Shown here in pieces: positions 47,587-53,408 of a DNA stretch of 57,088 bases. The notes beneath the pieces were generated by a model. It was not told where the DNA came from, ran no database searches, and worked only from the letters and a program-made list of their open reading frames with translations. The first letter of the stretch is position 1, and every line of letters begins with the position of its first letter. A program made the translations under genes and the position numbers. Source of the DNA: a virus; the IMG/VR virus record IMGVR_UViG_3300010232_000003. The stretch is one strand, 5' to 3'.

Positions 47587-48063
47587 TCACAGTGCCGTCG
47601 GGCCACGTTGGTCTTGAAATCGTCCATCGTACCCCGTGCTCTCTTGGTCGAGTTGGAAGAACACTAATTGACCGACGCGGCTACCGACGTCGAGAACAAC
47701 GGAGTCTTCACTGAAATTATAGAGCTCGAGCGTAATCTCGCCGCGGAAACCACTGTCTATCCACCCAGCAGTTTTATGGATAATGACACCTTGACGCCCG
47801 ATACTACTCCGGCCAGTCAACTGCGCAGCTACGTCAAGCGGCAGCTCGACGTAATCAAGCGTGTGTCCGATGTACGCTTCCCCTGGCTGGAGTACATGGC
47901 TATTCTCGTCGACACTCGTCGCATCCGTCGCCGGGCGATAGAGCTGATCTCCGAGCCTGATGTCGAATGAACACGGCTGTATTTGCTCGTCTCTATAATC
48001 AGGCTCGACTACTATTTTTCCGTTCTCGACGTGCTCCCGGATGGTTTTGTCACTTAGTAACAT
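47587..48063 (-). CDS. dcd: dCTP deaminase / dUTPase-family enzyme
   Basis: MLLSDKTI.., IQPCSFDIRLG, GRSSIGRQGV, GWIDSGFRGEITLEL. Confidence 0.85.
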   Translation of the reverse strand: MLLSDKTIREHVENGKIVVEPDYRDEQIQPCSFDIRLGDQLYRPATDATSVDENSHVLQPGEAYIGHTLDYVELPLDVAAQLTGRSSIGRQGVIIHKTAGWIDSGFRGEITLELYNFSEDSVVLDVGSRVGQLVFFQLDQESTGYDGRFQDQRGPTAL

Positions 48064-48190
48064 GGTCCCTAAACGTCTCCGCGCAGTCTTCACAGACAAG
48101 TTTCCTGATGGACTCGCTACCGAGCTCGACTTCGACGTAACAGTTATTTCCGCTCTCTATGCTTGACTCATTACATGCCGGACAGTCCAT
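48050..48190 (-). CDS. Small zinc-ribbon protein (46 aa)
   Basis: MDCPACNE..VCEDCAE. Its start overlaps the mazG stop (TGATG) and its end overlaps the dcd start. Not in the supplied ORF track. Confidence 0.4.
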   Translation of the reverse strand: MDCPACNESSIESGNNCYVEVELGSESIRKLVCEDCAETFRDHVTK

Positions 48191-48519
48191 CAGTCGTCAC
48201 CCTTCGGTGCTTCCATGTGTTCACTCCAATTTCTACTTTTATTTTTGGCTAAAGCCGCTTCGATGCACTCGTCGACGTCGAACCCACGGAGCGACGAGTA
48301 CCCCATCAAGTAAATAATGACGTCGCCGATCTCTTCCTTGAACCGTTCCTCGCTCGCCCAGTCGTCGTCGTAATACTCGCTCTTCACCTCCATCTCGAGG
48401 AGCTCCGATACCTCGACGTCGGTGCCAGCGAGCTGCGCGAGCGGCGTGAGATCTGGCCATTTCTCCATGCGCCACGCGTGCGTGGCTTCTTGTACCTGTC
48501 GAATATACGGATCAGTCAT
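48190..48519 (-). CDS. mazG: MazG-like nucleoside triphosphate pyrophosphohydrolase
   Basis: EVSELLEME..EEIGDVIIYL..AALAKNKSR. Confidence 0.8.
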   Translation of the reverse strand: MTDPYIRQVQEATHAWRMEKWPDLTPLAQLAGTDVEVSELLEMEVKSEYYDDDWASEERFKEEIGDVIIYLMGYSSLRGFDVDECIEAALAKNKSRNWSEHMEAPKGDD

Positions 48520-49757
48520 AGGAAGCTCACCACTGTGTCGAACAGCGACTCAGCTGTGAGGATCGATCCCGCGAACATGACGACGACAGCGATCGCCGAG
48601 ACGGTTTTTTGCCACGCGTCCATCTCGTACGCCGTCGCGTTGTACATCGCTAAGATCGTCACCGGGAGAAAGATCGCGCCGTTCAACGCTGGCATCGTGA
48701 TAGCCATCCGGACAGGTGTCATCTCCGTGAACTCGAGCGCCAAGATGGATAGCACCGAGCTGATACCGATCAACGCAACGGTGACCATGGTGAACGCGGT
48801 ATCGCCGAACACTGTTTTCTTCCCGAGCGATTGAGGCACCGAGAACGACGAACCGAATAACGTCCCAGTGGCTGATGTGAACGACGCGGCGAGCACAGCT
48901 GCCATGAACACGGGAAGCGCCCACGCGCCAACGATGTCGACAAGCGGTATCGCTGGATCTGTGAGGGATAGCTCACCGGGCTCGAGCGCGACAGCTGCGA
49001 CGACGAGCATCCCGACTGAGATCAGTATCGCGAACGCGATACCCACCGCGTTGTCGCGACGATACTTTCTCAGTGACGTCCATTCCTTTGTCGGTTGCAT
49101 CGAGCTCTGGATAAAAAAGTTCGGATAGTAAATCGTGGTGCCGAGCATCGCGATGACGAGTGTCGCGCTCGACACGTCGCCGGGCACGAACCCACGGGCG
49201 AGCTCAGCCGTGTTGACGTCTAACCCGAATGACAACGCGGCGTAGGAAACGAACACGGTTACGAGCAACGCACTGATAACCGCTTCGATATAGTTATACG
49301 TGCGCGTCAACACGAGCACGACACCGATGCTTGACGCGGCGAGGATCGCGACGTACACGTTGACACCCGTGAACCACGAGAACGCGGCGCCGGCCACGGC
49401 GTAGTTCGCCACGGCCCAGAGTTGCATGACGAGCGCCATCAGTATGGCATACGCGACGCCGATCCGTGTACTCCCAGTGAGCTCGTGGAGCGCGTCACTG
49501 ATGTACTCCATCAGGGGTCGATCCCTAACCGCGAGTCGCGACGACATGTCGTGCATCACCATGTCCACCGCGAACGCGAGCGGTAGCACCCAGAGCAACG
49601 TGAACCCAGCTGACGCTCCAGTTTGAGCGAGTATGAATATTGACCCGGCTCCGATCACATTCGCTGCGAACAGTATACCAAGCCCATAGCTATGGAGTAC
49701 GTTTTTCGTGTGATCGATGGCAACTTCTGCATAAGGTGACGAGGTTTCCAAGCTCAT
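48516..49757 (-). CDS. NRAMP-fold membrane transporter, divergent (canonical metal-site motifs absent)
   Basis: About 11 hydrophobic helices. GLGILFAANVIGAGSI..GFTLLWVL aligns to NRAMP GPGllva.ayiDPGNi..GykLLWvl. AMLGTTIYYPNFFIQSS aligns to a.vGatvMPHnlylhSa. Confidence 0.65.
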   Translation of the reverse strand: MSLETSSPYAEVAIDHTKNVLHSYGLGILFAANVIGAGSIFILAQTGASAGFTLLWVLPLAFAVDMVMHDMSSRLAVRDRPLMEYISDALHELTGSTRIGVAYAILMALVMQLWAVANYAVAGAAFSWFTGVNVYVAILAASSIGVVLVLTRTYNYIEAVISALLVTVFVSYAALSFGLDVNTAELARGFVPGDVSSATLVIAMLGTTIYYPNFFIQSSMQPTKEWTSLRKYRRDNAVGIAFAILISVGMLVVAAVALEPGELSLTDPAIPLVDIVGAWALPVFMAAVLAASFTSATGTLFGSSFSVPQSLGKKTVFGDTAFTMVTVALIGISSVLSILALEFTEMTPVRMAITMPALNGAIFLPVTILAMYNATAYEMDAWQKTVSAIAVVVMFAGSILTAESLFDTVVSFL

Positions 49758-50283
49758 TGTTAGCTCTGTCTCCGTCTTTGTGGTGTACGTCGAGGTCGTA
49801 GTCGAGTCCGGTTCTGTGCACGTCGCATTGTTGGCATCGTTCGTCGTCTCGCTGTATTACTGTTTCTCGGACTTGGTAGAATTCGTCCGGGTAGCCTTCG
49901 CCAGAGACCCCGACTTGCCAATTCCAATGGTCGTCTTGGACGATTTTTCCTTGCAGTGTCTCGGATATTTTCTCTTTTGTCTCTTCGTCTAGTGATTGCC
50001 CTTTGTTCCATACTTCGTTGTCTTCGTAGTACTCTTTGAGTGATTCGGATATTCTTTCTCGCCGTTCTTCCGGAACTGGACCCGTCTCTTTGCCTTGGTT
50101 TCCCTCTGAGATTTTTTGCTTGGTCTCTTCTGAGTGTGTTCGGCCTTTCATCGGGCTTTCTCTGCCCTGCATTTTTTCTGACATCACCTGTGATCGAGGC
50201 GTGCCTTTGTGCTCTTGACCGTAATGGATGTTTCTGCTCAGTCCCGACTCGAATTCTTTGCCGCAGTCTTCGCACGTGTACAC
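49690..50283 (-). CDS. Homing-type endonuclease: one C2H2 zinc finger, NUMOD3-like repeats, HNH
   Basis: CEDCGKEFESGLSRNIHYGQEH. EETKQKISEG, EERRERISES, EETKEKISET. LDVHHKDGD..NLVTLCRSCH. GTG start. Confidence 0.85.
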   Translation of the reverse strand: MYTCEDCGKEFESGLSRNIHYGQEHKGTPRSQVMSEKMQGRESPMKGRTHSEETKQKISEGNQGKETGPVPEERRERISESLKEYYEDNEVWNKGQSLDEETKEKISETLQGKIVQDDHWNWQVGVSGEGYPDEFYQVRETVIQRDDERCQQCDVHRTGLDYDLDVHHKDGDRANNELGNLVTLCRSCHRSHEKRTP

Positions 50284-52153: not shown

Positions 52154-52215
52154 GCGTTGGGACCTCCTGTCCACGTGAAGGTTAGGCAGGTATCACAATA
52201 AGTCTTTCACTTTTT
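52154..52215 (-). promoter_or_regulatory. Class-A promoter/leader cassette (diverged middle)
   Basis: ATAAGTCTT at 52198-52206 and GGGACCTCC at 52160-52168 on the plus strand. Confidence 0.55.
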
Positions 52216-52242
52216 CACTGTTATACGAGCGGTATTTTTTGA

Positions 52243-52815
52243 CTACTCTAACTCTTCCTCGTCTTCCAGTTCCTGCTCGTACAAGTCTTGACCAAGCGCG
52301 AGAGCAGACTCACCATCCTGGTCCAACGTGTATTCATACGGCGCGTCACTACGGCGCTTGACGTATCCACGGTCCTTAAACGCAGTACTGAGATACGCCG
52401 AGACTGCGTTAGCGTCCAAATCGTCGATCTGACCTGCAACTTCAGTGCTAGTCAGCCAGCGACCATTCACCGTACGCAACACCGTGGCGTGCTTGGTGTC
52501 CGGCATCACCGCGTCCTCGTGGATGGCGCCTCTATACGTTCCGCCCGACACCGAGCCGGTGCCAGGTCGCTCGTCACGCTCGAAGCCCGGCACCGGACCG
52601 TACTCTACGTCCGTTCGTTCGACTACGTCGTACTCGTCGAGCCGCGCCTGTTCCAGTGAATCGAGGACGTCCTCCGGGTTGAGCTCCGCTTCGACGTTGA
52701 CGTGAATCACAGTGATGTCATCAGTGTCAACAGGCAACCCTTGAAGGAGCTGTCGCATGTCCTCGACAGCGTCCGGCGCTTCAGCGGACAGCTCGTATAT
52801 TCGTCGTGCCATCAC
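52243..52815 (-). CDS. Hypothetical protein with possible C-terminal winged helix
   Basis: 190-aa acidic ORF. Confidence 0.55.
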   Translation of the reverse strand: MMARRIYELSAEAPDAVEDMRQLLQGLPVDTDDITVIHVNVEAELNPEDVLDSLEQARLDEYDVVERTDVEYGPVPGFERDERPGTGSVSGGTYRGAIHEDAVMPDTKHATVLRTVNGRWLTSTEVAGQIDDLDANAVSAYLSTAFKDRGYVKRRSDAPYEYTLDQDGESALALGQDLYEQELEDEEELE

Positions 52816-53408
52816 ACGTCCGGGTCGTGTTCACCCGTCCCGTACCAGTCCAGTATCGCTTGCTCCGCGACGTTCGTCGCGGTCTCGACGTCGAGTTCAT
52901 CAGTGTCGATGTGCTGATACGGGAACATCGACAATAGCTCTTCGTACTCAGTAAGAACGCGGTTGAGCTTCGGTTGATCTCGAGTACCGCGCTCGAAGAG
53001 GACGTCGCGACCCTCAGACTCGTGCACCAAGTGAGCGTGACGCTTCGGGGAATCGGTTTCGTCGAAGCGCTGCGACCATCGGAGGTCACCCGGGAAGAAA
53101 TACAGGACGTACGCGTCACCGTAACACGCCGCTAAGCGACGGAACTCCTCGCGGATTTGCTCGTCGGAGTTGTACACGCAATCAGTGAACCCTCGATCCG
53201 CGAGGATAACGTTTTCCGGGTTGAGCTCGTAGAGCCGATGTAGTGCTTCGTGGTAACGCTCACGGTAATCGATCCAACTCTCACCGATCCCTTCACGCAT
53301 CAAATTAGTGCCTTTCCACGTGACCCATTTTGGATGTCGCTCGACGAGCCGGTCTCTGATCGTTGATTTGCCGCTACGGCTCGCGCCTTCGAGCACGATG
53401 AGCGTCAT
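52812..53408 (-). CDS. P-loop deoxynucleotide (dNMP) kinase-like protein
   Basis: Trimmed to ATG 53408. MTLIVLEGASRSGKSTI Walker A. Confidence 0.65.
   Translation of the reverse strand: MTLIVLEGASRSGKSTIRDRLVERHPKWVTWKGTNLMREGIGESWIDYRERYHEALHRLYELNPENVILADRGFTDCVYNSDEQIREEFRRLAACYGDAYVLYFFPGDLRWSQRFDETDSPKRHAHLVHESEGRDVLFERGTRDQPKLNRVLTEYEELLSMFPYQHIDTDELDVETATNVAEQAILDWYGTGEHDPDV

What the first reader, a model, noticed from the sequence alone, without database searches (positions are those of the whole stretch)
47587..53408. T4-like deoxycytidine replacement toolkit, predicting fully modified cytosines (5-methyl or 5-hydroxymethyl) in virion DNA
The following genes are clustered here:
- A Dcd/dUTPase-family enzyme (47587-48063).
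- MazG (48190-48519).
- A UDG-superfamily protein (50399-51016).
- A ThyA-family enzyme (51096-51755).
- A P-loop dNMP kinase (52812-53408).

A second ThyA paralog lies at 9467-10393. In both paralogs the catalytic Cys is present. The residue equivalent to E. coli ThyA Asn177 (PFN) is Asp in both (YPYDV and YPMDV), 31 residues after the Cys in paralog 1, as in ThyA. Asn at that position specifies dUMP, while Asp specifies dCMP, as in T4 dCMP hydroxymethylase and in N177D ThyA mutants. The gene set parallels T4 gp42, gp56 and gp1. From memory, a Halobacterium phage (phiN, about 56 kb) was reported in the 1980s with all cytosines replaced by 5-methylcytosine, so such chemistry has precedent in this virus group.
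Basis: partly seen in the sequence, partly recalled or inferred. Interest (0 to 1): 0.8.

Follow-up and report, generated by a model that had tools for sequence, protein, structure and literature searches.

The report
Cytosine-replacement genes in a halophilic archaeal virus
An uncultured salt-lake tailed virus carries two thymidylate-synthase look-alikes built to modify dCMP rather than dUMP. With its dCTP-destroying enzymes and a nucleotide kinase, this predicts that it replaces cytosine in its DNA with a C5-modified form, most likely 5-hydroxymethylcytosine, which has no known genetic basis in archaeal viruses.

Summary
Both ThyA paralogs carry Asp at the E. coli Asn177 position.

Both paralogs, all 78 close homologues and all 150 best relatives of the Thy2 profile share that Asp. 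The full active-site pattern (D143, C146, T147, R166, S167, D169, D177) equals that of T4 dCMP hydroxymethylase. This argues against a thymidylate synthase or dUMP hydroxymethylase (N177), a CMP enzyme (A167/K126) or a 5-hydroxy-dCMP synthase (N169).

Dcd, MazG, an Nramp transporter, an Fe-S family-4-like UDG, Thy2 and a kinase form a cassette conserved in at least six diverged metagenomic virus contigs. In another relative, Thy1 sits in a MazG-DCD-Tmk-Thy1 operon.

Best reading: pre-replicative synthesis of 5-hydroxymethyl-dCTP and depletion of dCTP, T4-style.

Not settled:
- 5hmC versus 5mC. Xp12's enzyme has Asn at position 143, so that rule is soft.
- The extent of replacement.
- The reason for two paralogs.
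- The roles of the UDG and Nramp.

No glycosyltransferase was found. This is a new member of a known kind, in a lineage far from cultured haloviruses. The only related precedent is the unsequenced phage PhiN (5mC, 1988). All of this is sequence inference; there are no chemical data.

The parts
9467..10393 (+). Thy1: 308-aa ThyA-family enzyme, predicted dCMP C5-hydroxymethylase (MilA/T4 gp42-like)
   Evidence: Pfam PF00303 E=6e-19. Best PDB hit is MilA CMP hydroxymethylase, E=3.5e-23. Key residues R21 E58 Y94 R126 R127 D143 C146 T147 R166 S167 D169 D177 H207 Y209. The core signature (D143 C146 T147 R166 S167 D169 D177) is kept in nearly all 65 homologues; position 127 is Q in about 18 of them. 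Scores 63 bits or less, against thymidylate-synthase equivalog cutoffs of 108-427 bits.
47587..48063 (-). Dcd: dCTP deaminase, probably the bifunctional dUMP-forming type. It drains dCTP and supplies dUMP.
   Evidence: TIGR02274 139 bits against a cutoff of 92.8. Best PDB hits are M. jannaschii DCD-DUT 1ogh (E=6e-27) and M. tuberculosis 2qxx. The catalytic Glu is kept in 'ITLELYN'. Conserved in L001-L005, L015 and L016.
48190..48519 (-). MazG-type nucleoside-triphosphate pyrophosphohydrolase, the candidate dCTPase (gp56 analogue)
   Evidence: Pfam MazG E=2e-5. PHROG MazG-like. Weak PDB similarity to MazZ 7ody (E=2e-4) and dCTP pyrophosphatase 1 (E=0.02). Conserved in L001-L005; homologues lie next to Thy1 in L008 and in L006.
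48516..49757 (-). Nramp-family divalent-metal transporter. It is a conserved member of the cassette; its role in the pathway is unknown.
   Evidence: Pfam Nramp E=1e-31. 75-77% identical in L002, L003 and L005 (51% in L004), where the neighbouring genes are 55-66% identical. Also present in L015 and L016.
49690..50283 (-). HNH/NUMOD3 homing-endonuclease ORF inserted between Nramp and UDG. It is a mobile insertion, not part of the pathway.
   Evidence: Pfam NUMOD3 and HNH. Absent at this position in L002-L005; similar copies lie elsewhere in L004 and L006.
50399..51016 (-). Diverged family-4-like uracil-DNA glycosylase with four invariant Cys (a [4Fe-4S] pattern)
   Evidence: Pfam UDG E=1e-8. 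NCBIfam type-4 UDG 38 bits against a cutoff of 250. AF2 pLDDT 77; Foldseek top hits are Tth, S. tokodaii and T. maritima family-4 UDGs and UdgX, TM 0.56-0.64. Invariant C15, C18, C103, C117, N99 and H176. Adjacent to Thy2 in five of six loci (L001-L004, L016), one small ORF away in L005, and about 1.5 kb away on the same strand in L015.
51017..51095 (.). AT-rich intergenic spacer between the divergent UDG and Thy2 genes. Inferred bidirectional promoter.
   Evidence: Sequence read directly. There is a TATA-like 'CTTAATGT' about 30 nt upstream of the Thy2 GTG. A similar 'TTTTTAAC' lies about 30 nt upstream of the Thy1 ATG. Inference only.
51096..51755 (+). Thy2: 219-aa compact ThyA-family enzyme with the same dCMP-hydroxymethylase signature. 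Member of a small isolated clade.
   Evidence: Pfam PF00303 E=2e-10. AF2 pLDDT 87. Foldseek top hits are phage HY126 dCMP hydroxylase AfhB (TM 0.74) and MilA (TM up to 0.77). Residues R21 E58 Y94 R126 K127 D143 C146 T147 R166 S167 D169 D177. Only 5 clusters at E<=1e-30 among 1.84 billion representatives. All 150 best relatives have D177.
51746..52174 (-). 142-aa acidic protein, conserved neighbour of Thy2, function unknown
   Evidence: No significant family hit in the window protein. The precomputed Pfam tables list Rho_N for the L016 homologue and, weakly, for the L004 one. Homologues are found in L001, L004, L005 and L016.
52243..52815 (-). 190-aa acidic protein of unknown function. Poorly conserved.
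   Evidence: No Pfam, PHROG, NCBIfam or PADLOC hit. Found only in L001 and partially in L004.
52812..53408 (-). P-loop kinase, candidate dNMP kinase for the modified dCMP (gp1 analogue)
   Evidence: Walker A motif 'GASRSGKST' and a Tmk-like 'ADRGFTD' motif. PHROG_761 thymidylate kinase E=3e-9, nearly full length. Conserved in L001, L002, L005 and L015, and distantly in L006. In L016 and L008 a canonical Tmk (PF02223) sits in the cassette or operon instead. Profile searches against PDB and Tmk were inconclusive.

Best explanation
The window is the complete, circularly assembled 57,033-bp genome of an uncultured tailed virus with a strongly acidic, halophile-type proteome. It encodes a pre-replicative pathway that replaces deoxycytidine.

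Proposed flow:
1. Dcd converts dCTP to dUMP or dUTP.
2. MazG hydrolyses dCTP to dCMP.
3. One or both ThyA-like enzymes (Thy1, Thy2) add the one-carbon unit of methylene-tetrahydrofolate to C5 of dCMP and hydrate it to 5-hydroxymethyl-dCMP.
4. The P-loop kinase and the host NDP kinase raise it to the triphosphate.
5. The viral family-B polymerase incorporates it.

Draining dCTP while supplying hm-dCTP would bias incorporation towards the modified base. It would also starve host and competitor replication.

The Fe-S UDG most likely removes uracil produced by the virus's own dCTP deamination or by cytosine decay.

Shown: gene identities, the active-site signatures and the conservation of the cassette.
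Inferred: substrates of MazG and the kinase, the product (5hmC rather than 5mC), the completeness of replacement, the division of labour between the two paralogues, and the archaeal host.
For: Active-site signature:
- Both paralogues and their 78 homologues carry C146, D177, T147, D169, S167 and R126. D143 is present in all but two members of the Thy2 family, which have Asn.
- This is identical to T4 gp42, and to Lactobacillus phage ATCCB gp45, which sits beside a beta-glucosyltransferase and a UDP-galactopyranose mutase.
- The dUMP hydroxymethylase-type homologue PaMx11 gp51 differs exactly at the expected positions, N147 and N177.
- All 150 best relatives of the Thy2 profile have D177, 144 have D143 and 147 have D169.

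Published rules:
- N177D gives dCMP specificity, an acidic residue at 143 goes with a non-methyl product, and D169N marks 5-hydroxy-dCMP synthases (PMC13326640).
- Positions 147 and 177 were the top discriminators of modified contigs (PMC8670742).
- S167 and R126 indicate deoxyribose specificity (PMC5175136).

Structure and scores:
- The Thy2 model is confident, and its nearest structures are cytosine-nucleotide-modifying TS homologues.
- Neither paralogue reaches any thymidylate-synthase equivalog cutoff.

Accessory enzymes and context:
- Dcd is a bona fide dCTP deaminase closest to bifunctional dUMP-forming enzymes.
- MazG weakly resembles DCTPP1.
- The cassette is conserved in L001-L005, L015 and L016.
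- L008 has a MazG-DCD-Tmk-x-Thy1 operon.
- L005 carries ThyX in addition to Thy2, so Thy2 is not needed there for dTMP synthesis.
- Precedent: halobacterial phage PhiN has a fully cytosine-methylated genome.
Against: - There are no chemical data. The virus is uncultured.
- The methyl versus hydroxymethyl call rests on a correlation. Xp12, a 5mC phage, has Asn rather than a hydrophobic residue at 143. Some Thy2-family members also have Asn143.
- The substrate specificities of MazG and the kinase are unknown, and the kinase's family assignment is weak.
- Dcd, MazG and Tmk-like genes are common in haloviruses as plain nucleotide-supply genes (PMC8651126).
- No glycosyltransferase or other 5hmC-decorating enzyme was found in about 57 scanned ORFs.
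- No host-DNA-specific nuclease was identified.
- Two paralogues with the same signature are unexplained.
- Restriction-site avoidance is weak but uninformative.
Confidence: 0.55

Rival explanations
1. The product is 5-methyl-dCMP. One or both enzymes are dCMP methyltransferases as in Xanthomonas phage Xp12, and virion DNA carries 5-methylcytosine as reported for halobacterial phage PhiN.
For: - D177 alone converts TS into a dCMP methylase in mutants (cited in PMC8670742).
- Xp12's enzyme has the polar Asn at 143, not a hydrophobic residue, so position 143 is not a clean switch.
- Some Thy2-family members have N143.
Against: - The window enzymes have acidic D143 and T147, like the verified hydroxymethylases T4 gp42 and MilA. 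Xp12 has N143 and P147.
- No DHFR was found in the window. Xp12's gene is flanked by DHFR, as expected for reductive methylation. The host could supply DHFR.
- 144 of the 150 nearest relatives have D143.
Confidence: 0.2
2. 5hmC is only an intermediate, or the two paralogues make two different C5 adducts. The final virion base is a hypermodified cytosine installed by unrecognised enzymes, for example the conserved unknown neighbours of Thy2, or glycosyltransferases in relatives.
For: - Two anciently diverged paralogues (23% identity) co-occur in at least three genomes (window; L001+L012; the 69.4-kb contig with P0039 and L015).
- Thy2 lies beside the UDG-like gene and a conserved unknown protein in most related loci; in L015 they are about 1.5 kb apart.
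- The 69.4-kb relative carries two GT1/GT4 glycosyltransferases near the cassette.
- Thy2's closest phage homologue sits in a glucosyltransferase cluster.
Against: - No glycosyltransferase, carbamoyltransferase or other decorating enzyme was detected in the window.
- The L015 glycosyltransferases have no homologue in the window or in the other loci.
- Both paralogues have identical active-site signatures, so nothing in the sequence points to different chemistry.
Confidence: 0.13
3. This is ordinary nucleotide-supply (auxiliary metabolic) genes. The ThyA homologues make dTMP, Dcd feeds them dUMP, the kinase is a thymidylate kinase, and virion DNA is canonical.
For: [quoted passage not shown]
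- JGI annotated the Thy1 homologue as 'thymidylate synthase'.
Against: - Asp177 excludes dUMP in all characterised cases. It is invariant in 78 homologues and in 150 of 150 relatives.
- Scores are far below the TS equivalog cutoffs.
- L005 has a separate ThyX next to the cassette.
- PaMx11-type dUMP enzymes keep N177.
Confidence: 0.05
4. Thy2 is a flavin-dependent dCMP 5-hydroxylase (AfhB/RB69 gp48 type) that makes 5-hydroxycytosine, possibly alongside 5hmC from Thy1.
For: Thy2's best sequence and structure matches in the PDB are phage HY126 AfhB, entries 9iqc and 9iqu (E=2e-5; TM 0.74).
Against: - The diagnostic D169N substitution (PMC13326640) is absent. Thy2 and its family have invariant Asp ('NRSQD'), whereas AfhB has 'MRSQN'.
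- 147 of the 150 nearest relatives keep D169.
- No arabinosyl or glycosyl transferases are present.
Confidence: 0.04
5. This is a thymidine hypermodification pathway of the M6/PaMx11/ViI type. Dcd would feed dUMP to a dUMP hydroxymethylase, the kinase would be a 5-hmdU DNA kinase, and the glycosylase-like protein would be a pyrophosphorylase.
For: Thy1's best hits among sequenced phages are PaMx11-, M6- and Ab18-like 'thymidylate synthases' at about 30% identity. A kinase and a glycosylase-superfamily protein are present.
Against: - PaMx11 gp51 has N177 and N147, whereas the window enzymes have D177 and T147.
- aG/PT-PPlase has a helix-hairpin-helix glycosylase fold (PMC5889632), whereas the window protein is a family-4 UDG fold.
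- There are no Pfam hits to HMUDK or aGPT families.
Confidence: 0.03

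Closest known systems
Bacteriophage T4 hydroxymethylcytosine pathway (gp42 dCMP hydroxymethylase, gp56 dCTPase/dUTPase, gp1 dNMP kinase, Cd dCMP deaminase)
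   Same: - A TS-fold enzyme with the same active-site signature (D143 C146 T147 R166 S167 D169 D177).
- Companion enzymes that destroy dCTP and provide dCMP and dUMP.
- A dedicated P-loop nucleotide kinase.
- A virus-encoded family-B polymerase.
   Different: - There are two anciently diverged hydroxymethylase-like paralogues instead of one.
- dUMP supply comes from a dCTP deaminase (Dcd/DCD-DUT type) rather than a dCMP deaminase.
- The dCTPase candidate is a small MazG of unknown specificity.
- No alpha- or beta-glucosyltransferase is present.
- The cassette includes a family-4-like UDG and an Nramp transporter.
- The virus appears to be archaeal and halophilic.
MilA, the CMP 5-hydroxymethylase of Streptomyces rimofaciens (PDB 5b6d/5jnh)
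   Same: It is the best solved-structure match of Thy1 (E=3.5e-23) and a top structural match of Thy2. It shares D143 and D177 and lacks W80.
   Different: MilA has A176 and K133 (TS positions 167 and 126), which give a preference for CMP. Thy1 and Thy2 have Ser and Arg, the deoxyribonucleotide pattern. MilA belongs to an antibiotic pathway, not to DNA modification.
Phage HY126 AfhB / RB69 gp48 5-hydroxy-dCMP synthases
   Same: They are the closest solved structures to Thy2 (TM 0.74). They are compact proteins of about 220-240 aa with a TS fold, D177 and an acidic residue at 143, and they use dCMP.
   Different: They carry D169N and use a flavin and O2. Thy2 keeps D169, the folate-binding Asp.
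Xanthomonas phage Xp12 dCMP methyltransferase and halobacterial phage PhiN (5-methylcytosine genomes)
   Same: Cytosine is replaced at the nucleotide level by a TS homologue with D177 (Xp12). PhiN shows that complete C5-modified cytosine exists in a halobacterial virus.
   Different: Xp12's enzyme has N143 and P147 and is flanked by DHFR and dCMP deaminase. The window enzymes have D143 and T147, with no DHFR. PhiN is unsequenced, so no genetic comparison is possible.

Membership tests
ThyA/thymidylate-synthase superfamily (PF00303) | TS fold and a significant profile match | tested here: met
   Pfam E=6e-19 (Thy1) and 2e-10 (Thy2), both above the gathering score. AF2 of Thy2 has pLDDT 87, with Foldseek TM 0.65-0.77 to TS, MilA and AfhB.
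ThyA/thymidylate-synthase superfamily (PF00303) | Catalytic nucleophile Cys146 plus the phosphate- and sugar-binding residues R21, R126', R166, S167, H207, Y209 | tested here: met
   All are present in both paralogues and conserved in both families. Thy2 has K at position 127.
Canonical thymidylate synthase (dUMP to dTMP) | Asn177 (uracil recognition), His147, and a score above the NCBIfam equivalog cutoffs | tested here: not met
   D177 and T147 in both. Best equivalog scores are 63 bits (Thy1) and 37 bits (Thy2), against cutoffs of 108-427.
dCMP hydroxymethylase (T4 gp42 type) | Asp at the N177 position (cytosine specificity) | tested here: met
   Thy1 D175 and Thy2 D173. Invariant in 78 homologues and in 150 of 150 profile relatives.
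dCMP hydroxymethylase (T4 gp42 type) | Acidic residue at the L143 position (water access, hydroxymethyl product) with D169 retained (folate binding) | tested here: met
   D143 and D169 in both. Caveat: the rule is a correlation, and Xp12 has N143.
dCMP hydroxymethylase (T4 gp42 type) | Deoxyribose specificity (Ser167 and Arg126, rather than MilA's Ala and Lys) | tested here: met
   S and R in both. The rule comes from PMC5175136.
dCMP hydroxymethylase (T4 gp42 type) | Catalysis: dCMP + CH2-THF + H2O gives 5hm-dCMP + THF | not testable with these tools
   This needs a recombinant enzyme assay or in vivo LC-MS.
5-hydroxy-dCMP synthase (AfhB / RB69 gp48) | D169N substitution and flavin dependence | tested here: not met
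   Both paralogues have D169. AfhB has N in 'RSQN'. Flavin binding cannot be tested here.
T4-type complete cytosine replacement system | A dCTP-eliminating activity (a dCTPase and/or deaminase) | tested here: inconclusive
   The dCTP deaminase is met at equivalog level. MazG is present, but its substrate is unknown and its similarity to DCTPP1 is weak.
T4-type complete cytosine replacement system | A dNMP kinase that accepts the modified dCMP | tested here: inconclusive
   A P-loop kinase with a Tmk-like DR motif and a PHROG thymidylate-kinase hit at E=3e-9. PDB and hhalign comparisons match only the P-loop. A canonical Tmk sits in the cassette or operon instead in L016 and L008.
T4-type complete cytosine replacement system | DNA glucosyltransferases that decorate 5hmC | tested here: not met
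   No glycosyltransferase family hit in about 57 ORFs scanned. The L015 glycosyltransferases have no window homologue.
T4-type complete cytosine replacement system | Virion DNA with cytosine fully replaced | not testable with these tools
   This needs LC-MS or modification-aware sequencing.
Family-4 uracil-DNA glycosylase | UDG fold, four Cys ligands for [4Fe-4S], the uracil-recognising Asn in the 'TN..KC' motif and the motif-B His | tested here: met
   Foldseek top hits are family-4 UDGs. C15, C18, C103, C117, N99 and H176 are invariant.
Family-4 uracil-DNA glycosylase | Motif A 'GE(A/G)PG' and a score above the family cutoffs | tested here: not met
   Motif A is 'GQEPAYN'. NCBIfam scores are 38 and 28 bits, against cutoffs of 250 and 125. 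It is a diverged offshoot, and activity cannot be tested here.

The most novel reading that the evidence does not exclude
This lineage of halophilic archaeal viruses uses two non-redundant dCMP-modifying ThyA paralogues to install two different C5-cytosine adducts, or one adduct that is further processed. In this reading, the Thy2 / Fe-S UDG-like / Nramp cassette is a previously unrecognised archaeal-virus DNA-modification module. The glycosylase-fold protein would act on the modified base or on unmodified host DNA rather than performing routine uracil repair.
Probability: 0.12. Interest if true: 0.8.

Novelty: new member of a known kind. Interest (0 to 1): 0.5.

Why it matters
Complete replacement of cytosine has been known in a halobacterial virus (PhiN, 5-methylcytosine) since 1988, but that virus was never sequenced. 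The papers I could search treat halovirus thymidylate-synthase genes as plain pyrimidine-supply genes.

This genome and its relatives give concrete candidate enzymes. There are two TS homologues with the full T4 gp42 signature, plus dCTP-draining enzymes and a kinase. These can be expressed and assayed.

If confirmed, T4-style pre-replicative cytosine modification would extend to archaeal viruses. That would help explain resistance to haloarchaeal restriction and CRISPR systems. It would also flag these contigs as ones where modification may bias sequencing, cloning or restriction-based analysis of hypersaline viromes.

Tried and rejected
- Megablast of 31 kb of the window against 50,697 phage records found nothing. 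tblastn with the putative terminase also found nothing. PolB is only 24% identical to Halorubrum tailed virus 27. No cultured relative is available for comparison.
- IMG/VR scans with single proteins and with alignments returned only the near-identical UViG_3300046051_000019 and two distant loci.
- I considered thymidine hypermodification because Thy1's best phage hits are PaMx11- and M6-like enzymes. I rejected it: PaMx11 gp51 has N177 and N147, and aG/PT-PPlase has an HhH fold, not a UDG fold.
- I considered Thy2 as a flavin-dependent 5-hydroxylase because AfhB is its best PDB match. I rejected it on D169.
- I considered a CMP (ribonucleotide) specificity like MilA's. I rejected it on S167 and R126.
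- The kinase profile against the PDB gave only an artefactual RecA match and P-loop-level hits. hhalign against the Tmk-type kinases of relatives aligned only 20 P-loop columns.
- Palindrome and restriction-site avoidance is weak: the median O/E of 4-mers is about 1.0, CTAG is 0.65 and GGCC is 0.58. This decides nothing.
- PADLOC gave no defence-system hit for any cassette protein.
- Literature searches found no report of a dCMP hydroxymethylase or 5hmC in an archaeal virus, and no report of a virus-encoded Nramp in haloviruses. The library is limited to open-access papers.
- I tested the '143 = hydrophobic means methyl' rule on Xp12. It has Asn, so the rule is weaker than published wording suggests.

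Full report
**What the window is.** The first 55 bases repeat exactly at the end, so the contig is a circular assembly of 57,033 bp.
- Almost all genes lie on the minus strand. Most predicted proteins have a pI of 4-5, the signature of salt-in halophiles.
- The genome encodes an HK97-type capsid protein, a portal, a Mu-F-like protein, a tape-measure protein, a family-B DNA polymerase, a primase-polymerase, an ERCC4 nuclease and several HNH endonucleases.
- It has no nucleotide-level relative among 50,697 sequenced phages. Its polymerase is only about 24% identical to that of Halorubrum tailed virus 27.
- The protein database shows the window is itself a JGI metagenome contig. A sister genome of 56,428 bp exists in IMG/VR.
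- I infer, but cannot prove, that the host is a halophilic archaeon. The evidence:
  - Both ThyA-like genes have leaderless-type TATA boxes about 30 nt upstream.
  - The Dcd and UDG have archaeal affinities.
  - A related contig encodes AglB.

**Check of the observation.** The homologues begin at the same residues.
- Pfam, NCBIfam and PHROGs give the following:
  - Dcd: E=1e-37, above the dCTP-deaminase equivalog cutoff.
  - MazG: E=2e-5.
  - UDG superfamily: E=1e-8.
  - Two Thymidylat_synt proteins: E=6e-19 and 2e-10.
  - A P-loop kinase whose best named match is PHROG 'thymidylate kinase', E=3e-9.
- The catalytic Cys and the Asp at the Asn177 position are present in both paralogues: Thy1 C144/D175 and Thy2 C136/D173.
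- The Asp placement does not depend on one alignment:
  - It recurs in three MAFFT alignments with E. coli ThyA.
  - It recurs in HMMER pairwise alignments to solved structures, where 'YPMDV' aligns with 'VPFNI' of E. faecalis TS and 'YPYDV' with 'NPFNV' of B. subtilis ThyA.
  - The Thy2 AF2 model (pLDDT 87) is a complete TS fold.

**What the two ThyA-like enzymes are.** Recent work defines diagnostic positions:
- N177D gives dCMP specificity.
- An acidic residue at L143 accompanies non-methyl products.
- D169N marks flavin-dependent 5-hydroxy-dCMP synthases (PMC13326640).
- Positions 147 and 177 best separate modified from unmodified metavirome contigs (PMC8670742).
- S167 and R126 versus A and K separate deoxyribo- from ribonucleotide substrates (PMC5175136).

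Both window paralogues read D143, C146, T147, R166, S167, D169, D177. This is the pattern of T4 gp42.
- All 13 Thy2-family and 65 Thy1-family homologues keep C146 and D177. D143 is kept in all but two Thy2-family members, which have Asn.
- A control behaves as expected. PaMx11 gp51, from a phage with hypermodified thymidine, has N147 and N177.
- Lactobacillus phage ATCCB gp45 is Thy2's best hit among sequenced phages. It lies next to a beta-glucosyltransferase and a UDP-galactopyranose mutase, and it has the same D/T/D pattern.
- A profile search of 1.84 billion representative proteins shows the Thy2 family is tiny, with 5 clusters at E<=1e-30 followed by a gap to 4e-26. All 150 nearest relatives have D177, 144 have D143 and 147 have D169.
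- Neither paralogue approaches any thymidylate-synthase equivalog cutoff.
- My conclusion is that both are dCMP-specific, folate-dependent C5-modifying enzymes, most probably hydroxymethylases.

The methyl versus hydroxymethyl call is the weakest link.
- I fetched phage Xp12, whose DNA has 5mC. Its single TS homologue within the 50 kb fetched (of 63.8 kb) has D177 but N143 and P147, and it is flanked by DHFR and dCMP deaminase.
- So the natural methylase does not have a hydrophobic residue at 143. It differs from the window enzymes by amide versus acid at 143 and by P versus T at 147.
- Some Thy2-family members also carry N143.
- I therefore favour 5hmC but keep 5mC at about 0.2.

**The surrounding genes form a conserved cassette.** In six further loci from at least five independent contigs, with proteins 50-98% identical, the same set recurs: Dcd, usually MazG, Nramp, the UDG-like gene, Thy2 and a kinase. 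Thy2 is divergently transcribed from the UDG-like gene in all of them except L015, where it lies on the same strand about 1.5 kb away.
- The HNH/NUMOD3 ORF between Nramp and UDG is a mobile insertion specific to the window lineage.
- In L016, a canonical Tmk (PF02223) sits in the cassette and no window-type kinase is seen.
- In L008, Thy1's homologue lies in a MazG-DCD-Tmk-x-Thy1 operon. Together with the PHROG hit and a Tmk-like 'DRG..D...Y' motif, this supports a nucleotide-kinase role for the window kinase. Profile searches against the PDB and against the Tmk-type proteins matched only the P-loop.
- The Dcd is closest to the dUMP-forming bifunctional enzymes of M. jannaschii and M. tuberculosis and keeps the catalytic Glu.
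- The MazG has weak similarity to MazZ and to mammalian dCTP pyrophosphatase 1.
- L005 also carries ThyX, so Thy2 is not needed there for dTMP synthesis.
- None of the cassette proteins matches a known defence system.

**The UDG-like protein.**
- Its family keeps four invariant cysteines in the spacing of family-4 UDG iron-sulfur ligands. It also keeps the Asn of the 'FTN..KC' motif and a motif-B His.
- Its AF2 model (pLDDT 77) best matches family-4 UDGs and UdgX.
- Motif A is atypical ('GQEPAYN'), and scores are far below the family cutoffs.
- It is not an aG/PT-pyrophosphorylase, because that family has a helix-hairpin-helix fold.
- Because the uracil-recognising Asn is retained, the simplest role is removal of uracil. 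That uracil is made more likely by the virus's own dCTP deamination. I note from general knowledge that archaeal-type B polymerases stall at template uracil.
- It is not part of the T4 paradigm, and its tight linkage to Thy2 is unexplained.

**Mechanism proposed, with steps 2-5 inferred.**
1. Dcd and MazG drain dCTP to dUMP and dCMP.
2. Thy1 and/or Thy2 convert dCMP to 5hm-dCMP.
3. The kinase and host NDK make the triphosphate.
4. The viral polymerase incorporates it.
5. dCTP depletion biases incorporation towards the modified base and handicaps host and competitor DNA synthesis.

No glycosyltransferase or other decorating enzyme was detected in about 57 scanned ORFs. One 69.4-kb relative has two GT1/GT4 genes near the cassette. 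These have no homologue in the window.

**Why two paralogues?** Thy1 and Thy2 are only 23% identical. Both are conserved, and they co-occur in at least three genomes. Nothing in the sequences distinguishes their chemistry. This remains open, and it carries the most novel reading: two adducts, or a further-processed base.

**Comparison with what is known, and novelty.**
- Functionally this is a T4-type hydroxymethylcytosine pathway.
- Membership in the TS superfamily and in the dCMP-hydroxymethylase signature class is met on every sequence criterion. Catalysis and DNA content are untestable here.
- The differences from T4 are: two paralogues; a dCTP deaminase instead of a dCMP deaminase; no glucosyltransferases; the added UDG and Nramp; and an archaeal, halophilic setting.
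- The literature I could search treats halovirus thymidylate-synthase genes as pyrimidine supply. It records only PhiN (5mC, unsequenced) as a cytosine-replaced halovirus. I found no report of a dCMP hydroxymethylase or 5hmC in an archaeal virus.
- I rate it a new member of a known kind with moderate interest (0.5). The chemistry is expected from the T4 paradigm. However, it supplies assayable gene candidates for a question open since 1988, and the paired paralogues and cassette composition are unusual.

Noticed in passing
window 44265-47273 (- strand): The helicase gene is 'fractured'. The N-terminal half (46113-47273) ends in an intein N-terminal Hint region. The C-terminal half (44265-45407) begins with the intein C-terminal splicing region followed by Helicase_C. 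A free-standing C2H2-zinc-finger/HNH ORF (45245-46132) lies between them in another frame. Relatives L002, L004 and L005 have an uninterrupted 601-614-aa helicase. This looks like a split intein with a homing endonuclease.
   Followed up: partly
window 48516-49757 (- strand): This is a virus-encoded Nramp-family divalent-metal transporter. It is the best conserved gene of the nucleotide cassette: 75-77% identity in L002, L003 and L005, where the neighbours are 55-66% (it is only 51% in L004). I found no report of Nramp in haloviruses. Its link to nucleotide metabolism or to the Fe-S UDG is unexplained.
   Followed up: partly
window 154-819, 36391-36828, 45245-46132, 49690-50283 (- strand): There are four paralogous ORFs with HNH or HNH-like C-termini, most with C2H2 zinc-finger N-termini and three with Pfam NUMOD3 hits, scattered through the genome (45245-46132 was judged from its sequence only and not scanned). 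At least one, at 49690-50283, is an insertion absent from relatives. That is many homing endonucleases for a 57-kb genome.
   Followed up: partly
window 42005-43540 (- strand): This protein has a TROVE (Ro60-like) domain plus a von Willebrand factor A domain. It is conserved in L001-L004, next to the helicase and nucleotide cassette.
   Followed up: no
window 35067-36316 (- strand): An MT-A70-family DNA methyltransferase (35067-35678, 'DPPW' motif) lies next to a 190-aa class-II glutamine-amidotransferase-like protein (35744-36316). The latter is conserved in L008. This may be a second, independent DNA-modification function.
   Followed up: no
window 56161-56808 (- strand); L005 14815-15717: The window ORF has a weak hit to the T4 endonuclease V-type pyrimidine-dimer glycosylase (Pyr_excise, E=2e-4). 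The relative L005 carries a UvdE UV-damage endonuclease. UV-repair genes seem to recur in this virus group.
   Followed up: no
window 1-55 and 57034-57088: There is an exact 55-bp direct terminal repeat. This indicates a circular assembly, and so a complete genome of 57,033 bp.
   Followed up: yes
L015 1688-3762 (69.4-kb Logan contig ERR11420198_27176): Two GT1/GT4-family glycosyltransferases lie a few kb from the kinase-Thy2-UDG-Nramp-Dcd cassette. This relative also has a Thy1 homologue. The glycosyltransferases have no homologue in the window. They could decorate 5hmC in that virus.
   Followed up: partly
L017 (Xanthomonas phage Xp12, MT664984) 44377-46195: Xp12, a 5-methylcytosine phage, has its TS homologue (D177, N143, P147) in a row with dCMP deaminase and DHFR. 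Position 143 is Asn, not hydrophobic. This weakens the published rule that links position 143 to a methyl or hydroxymethyl product.
   Followed up: partly
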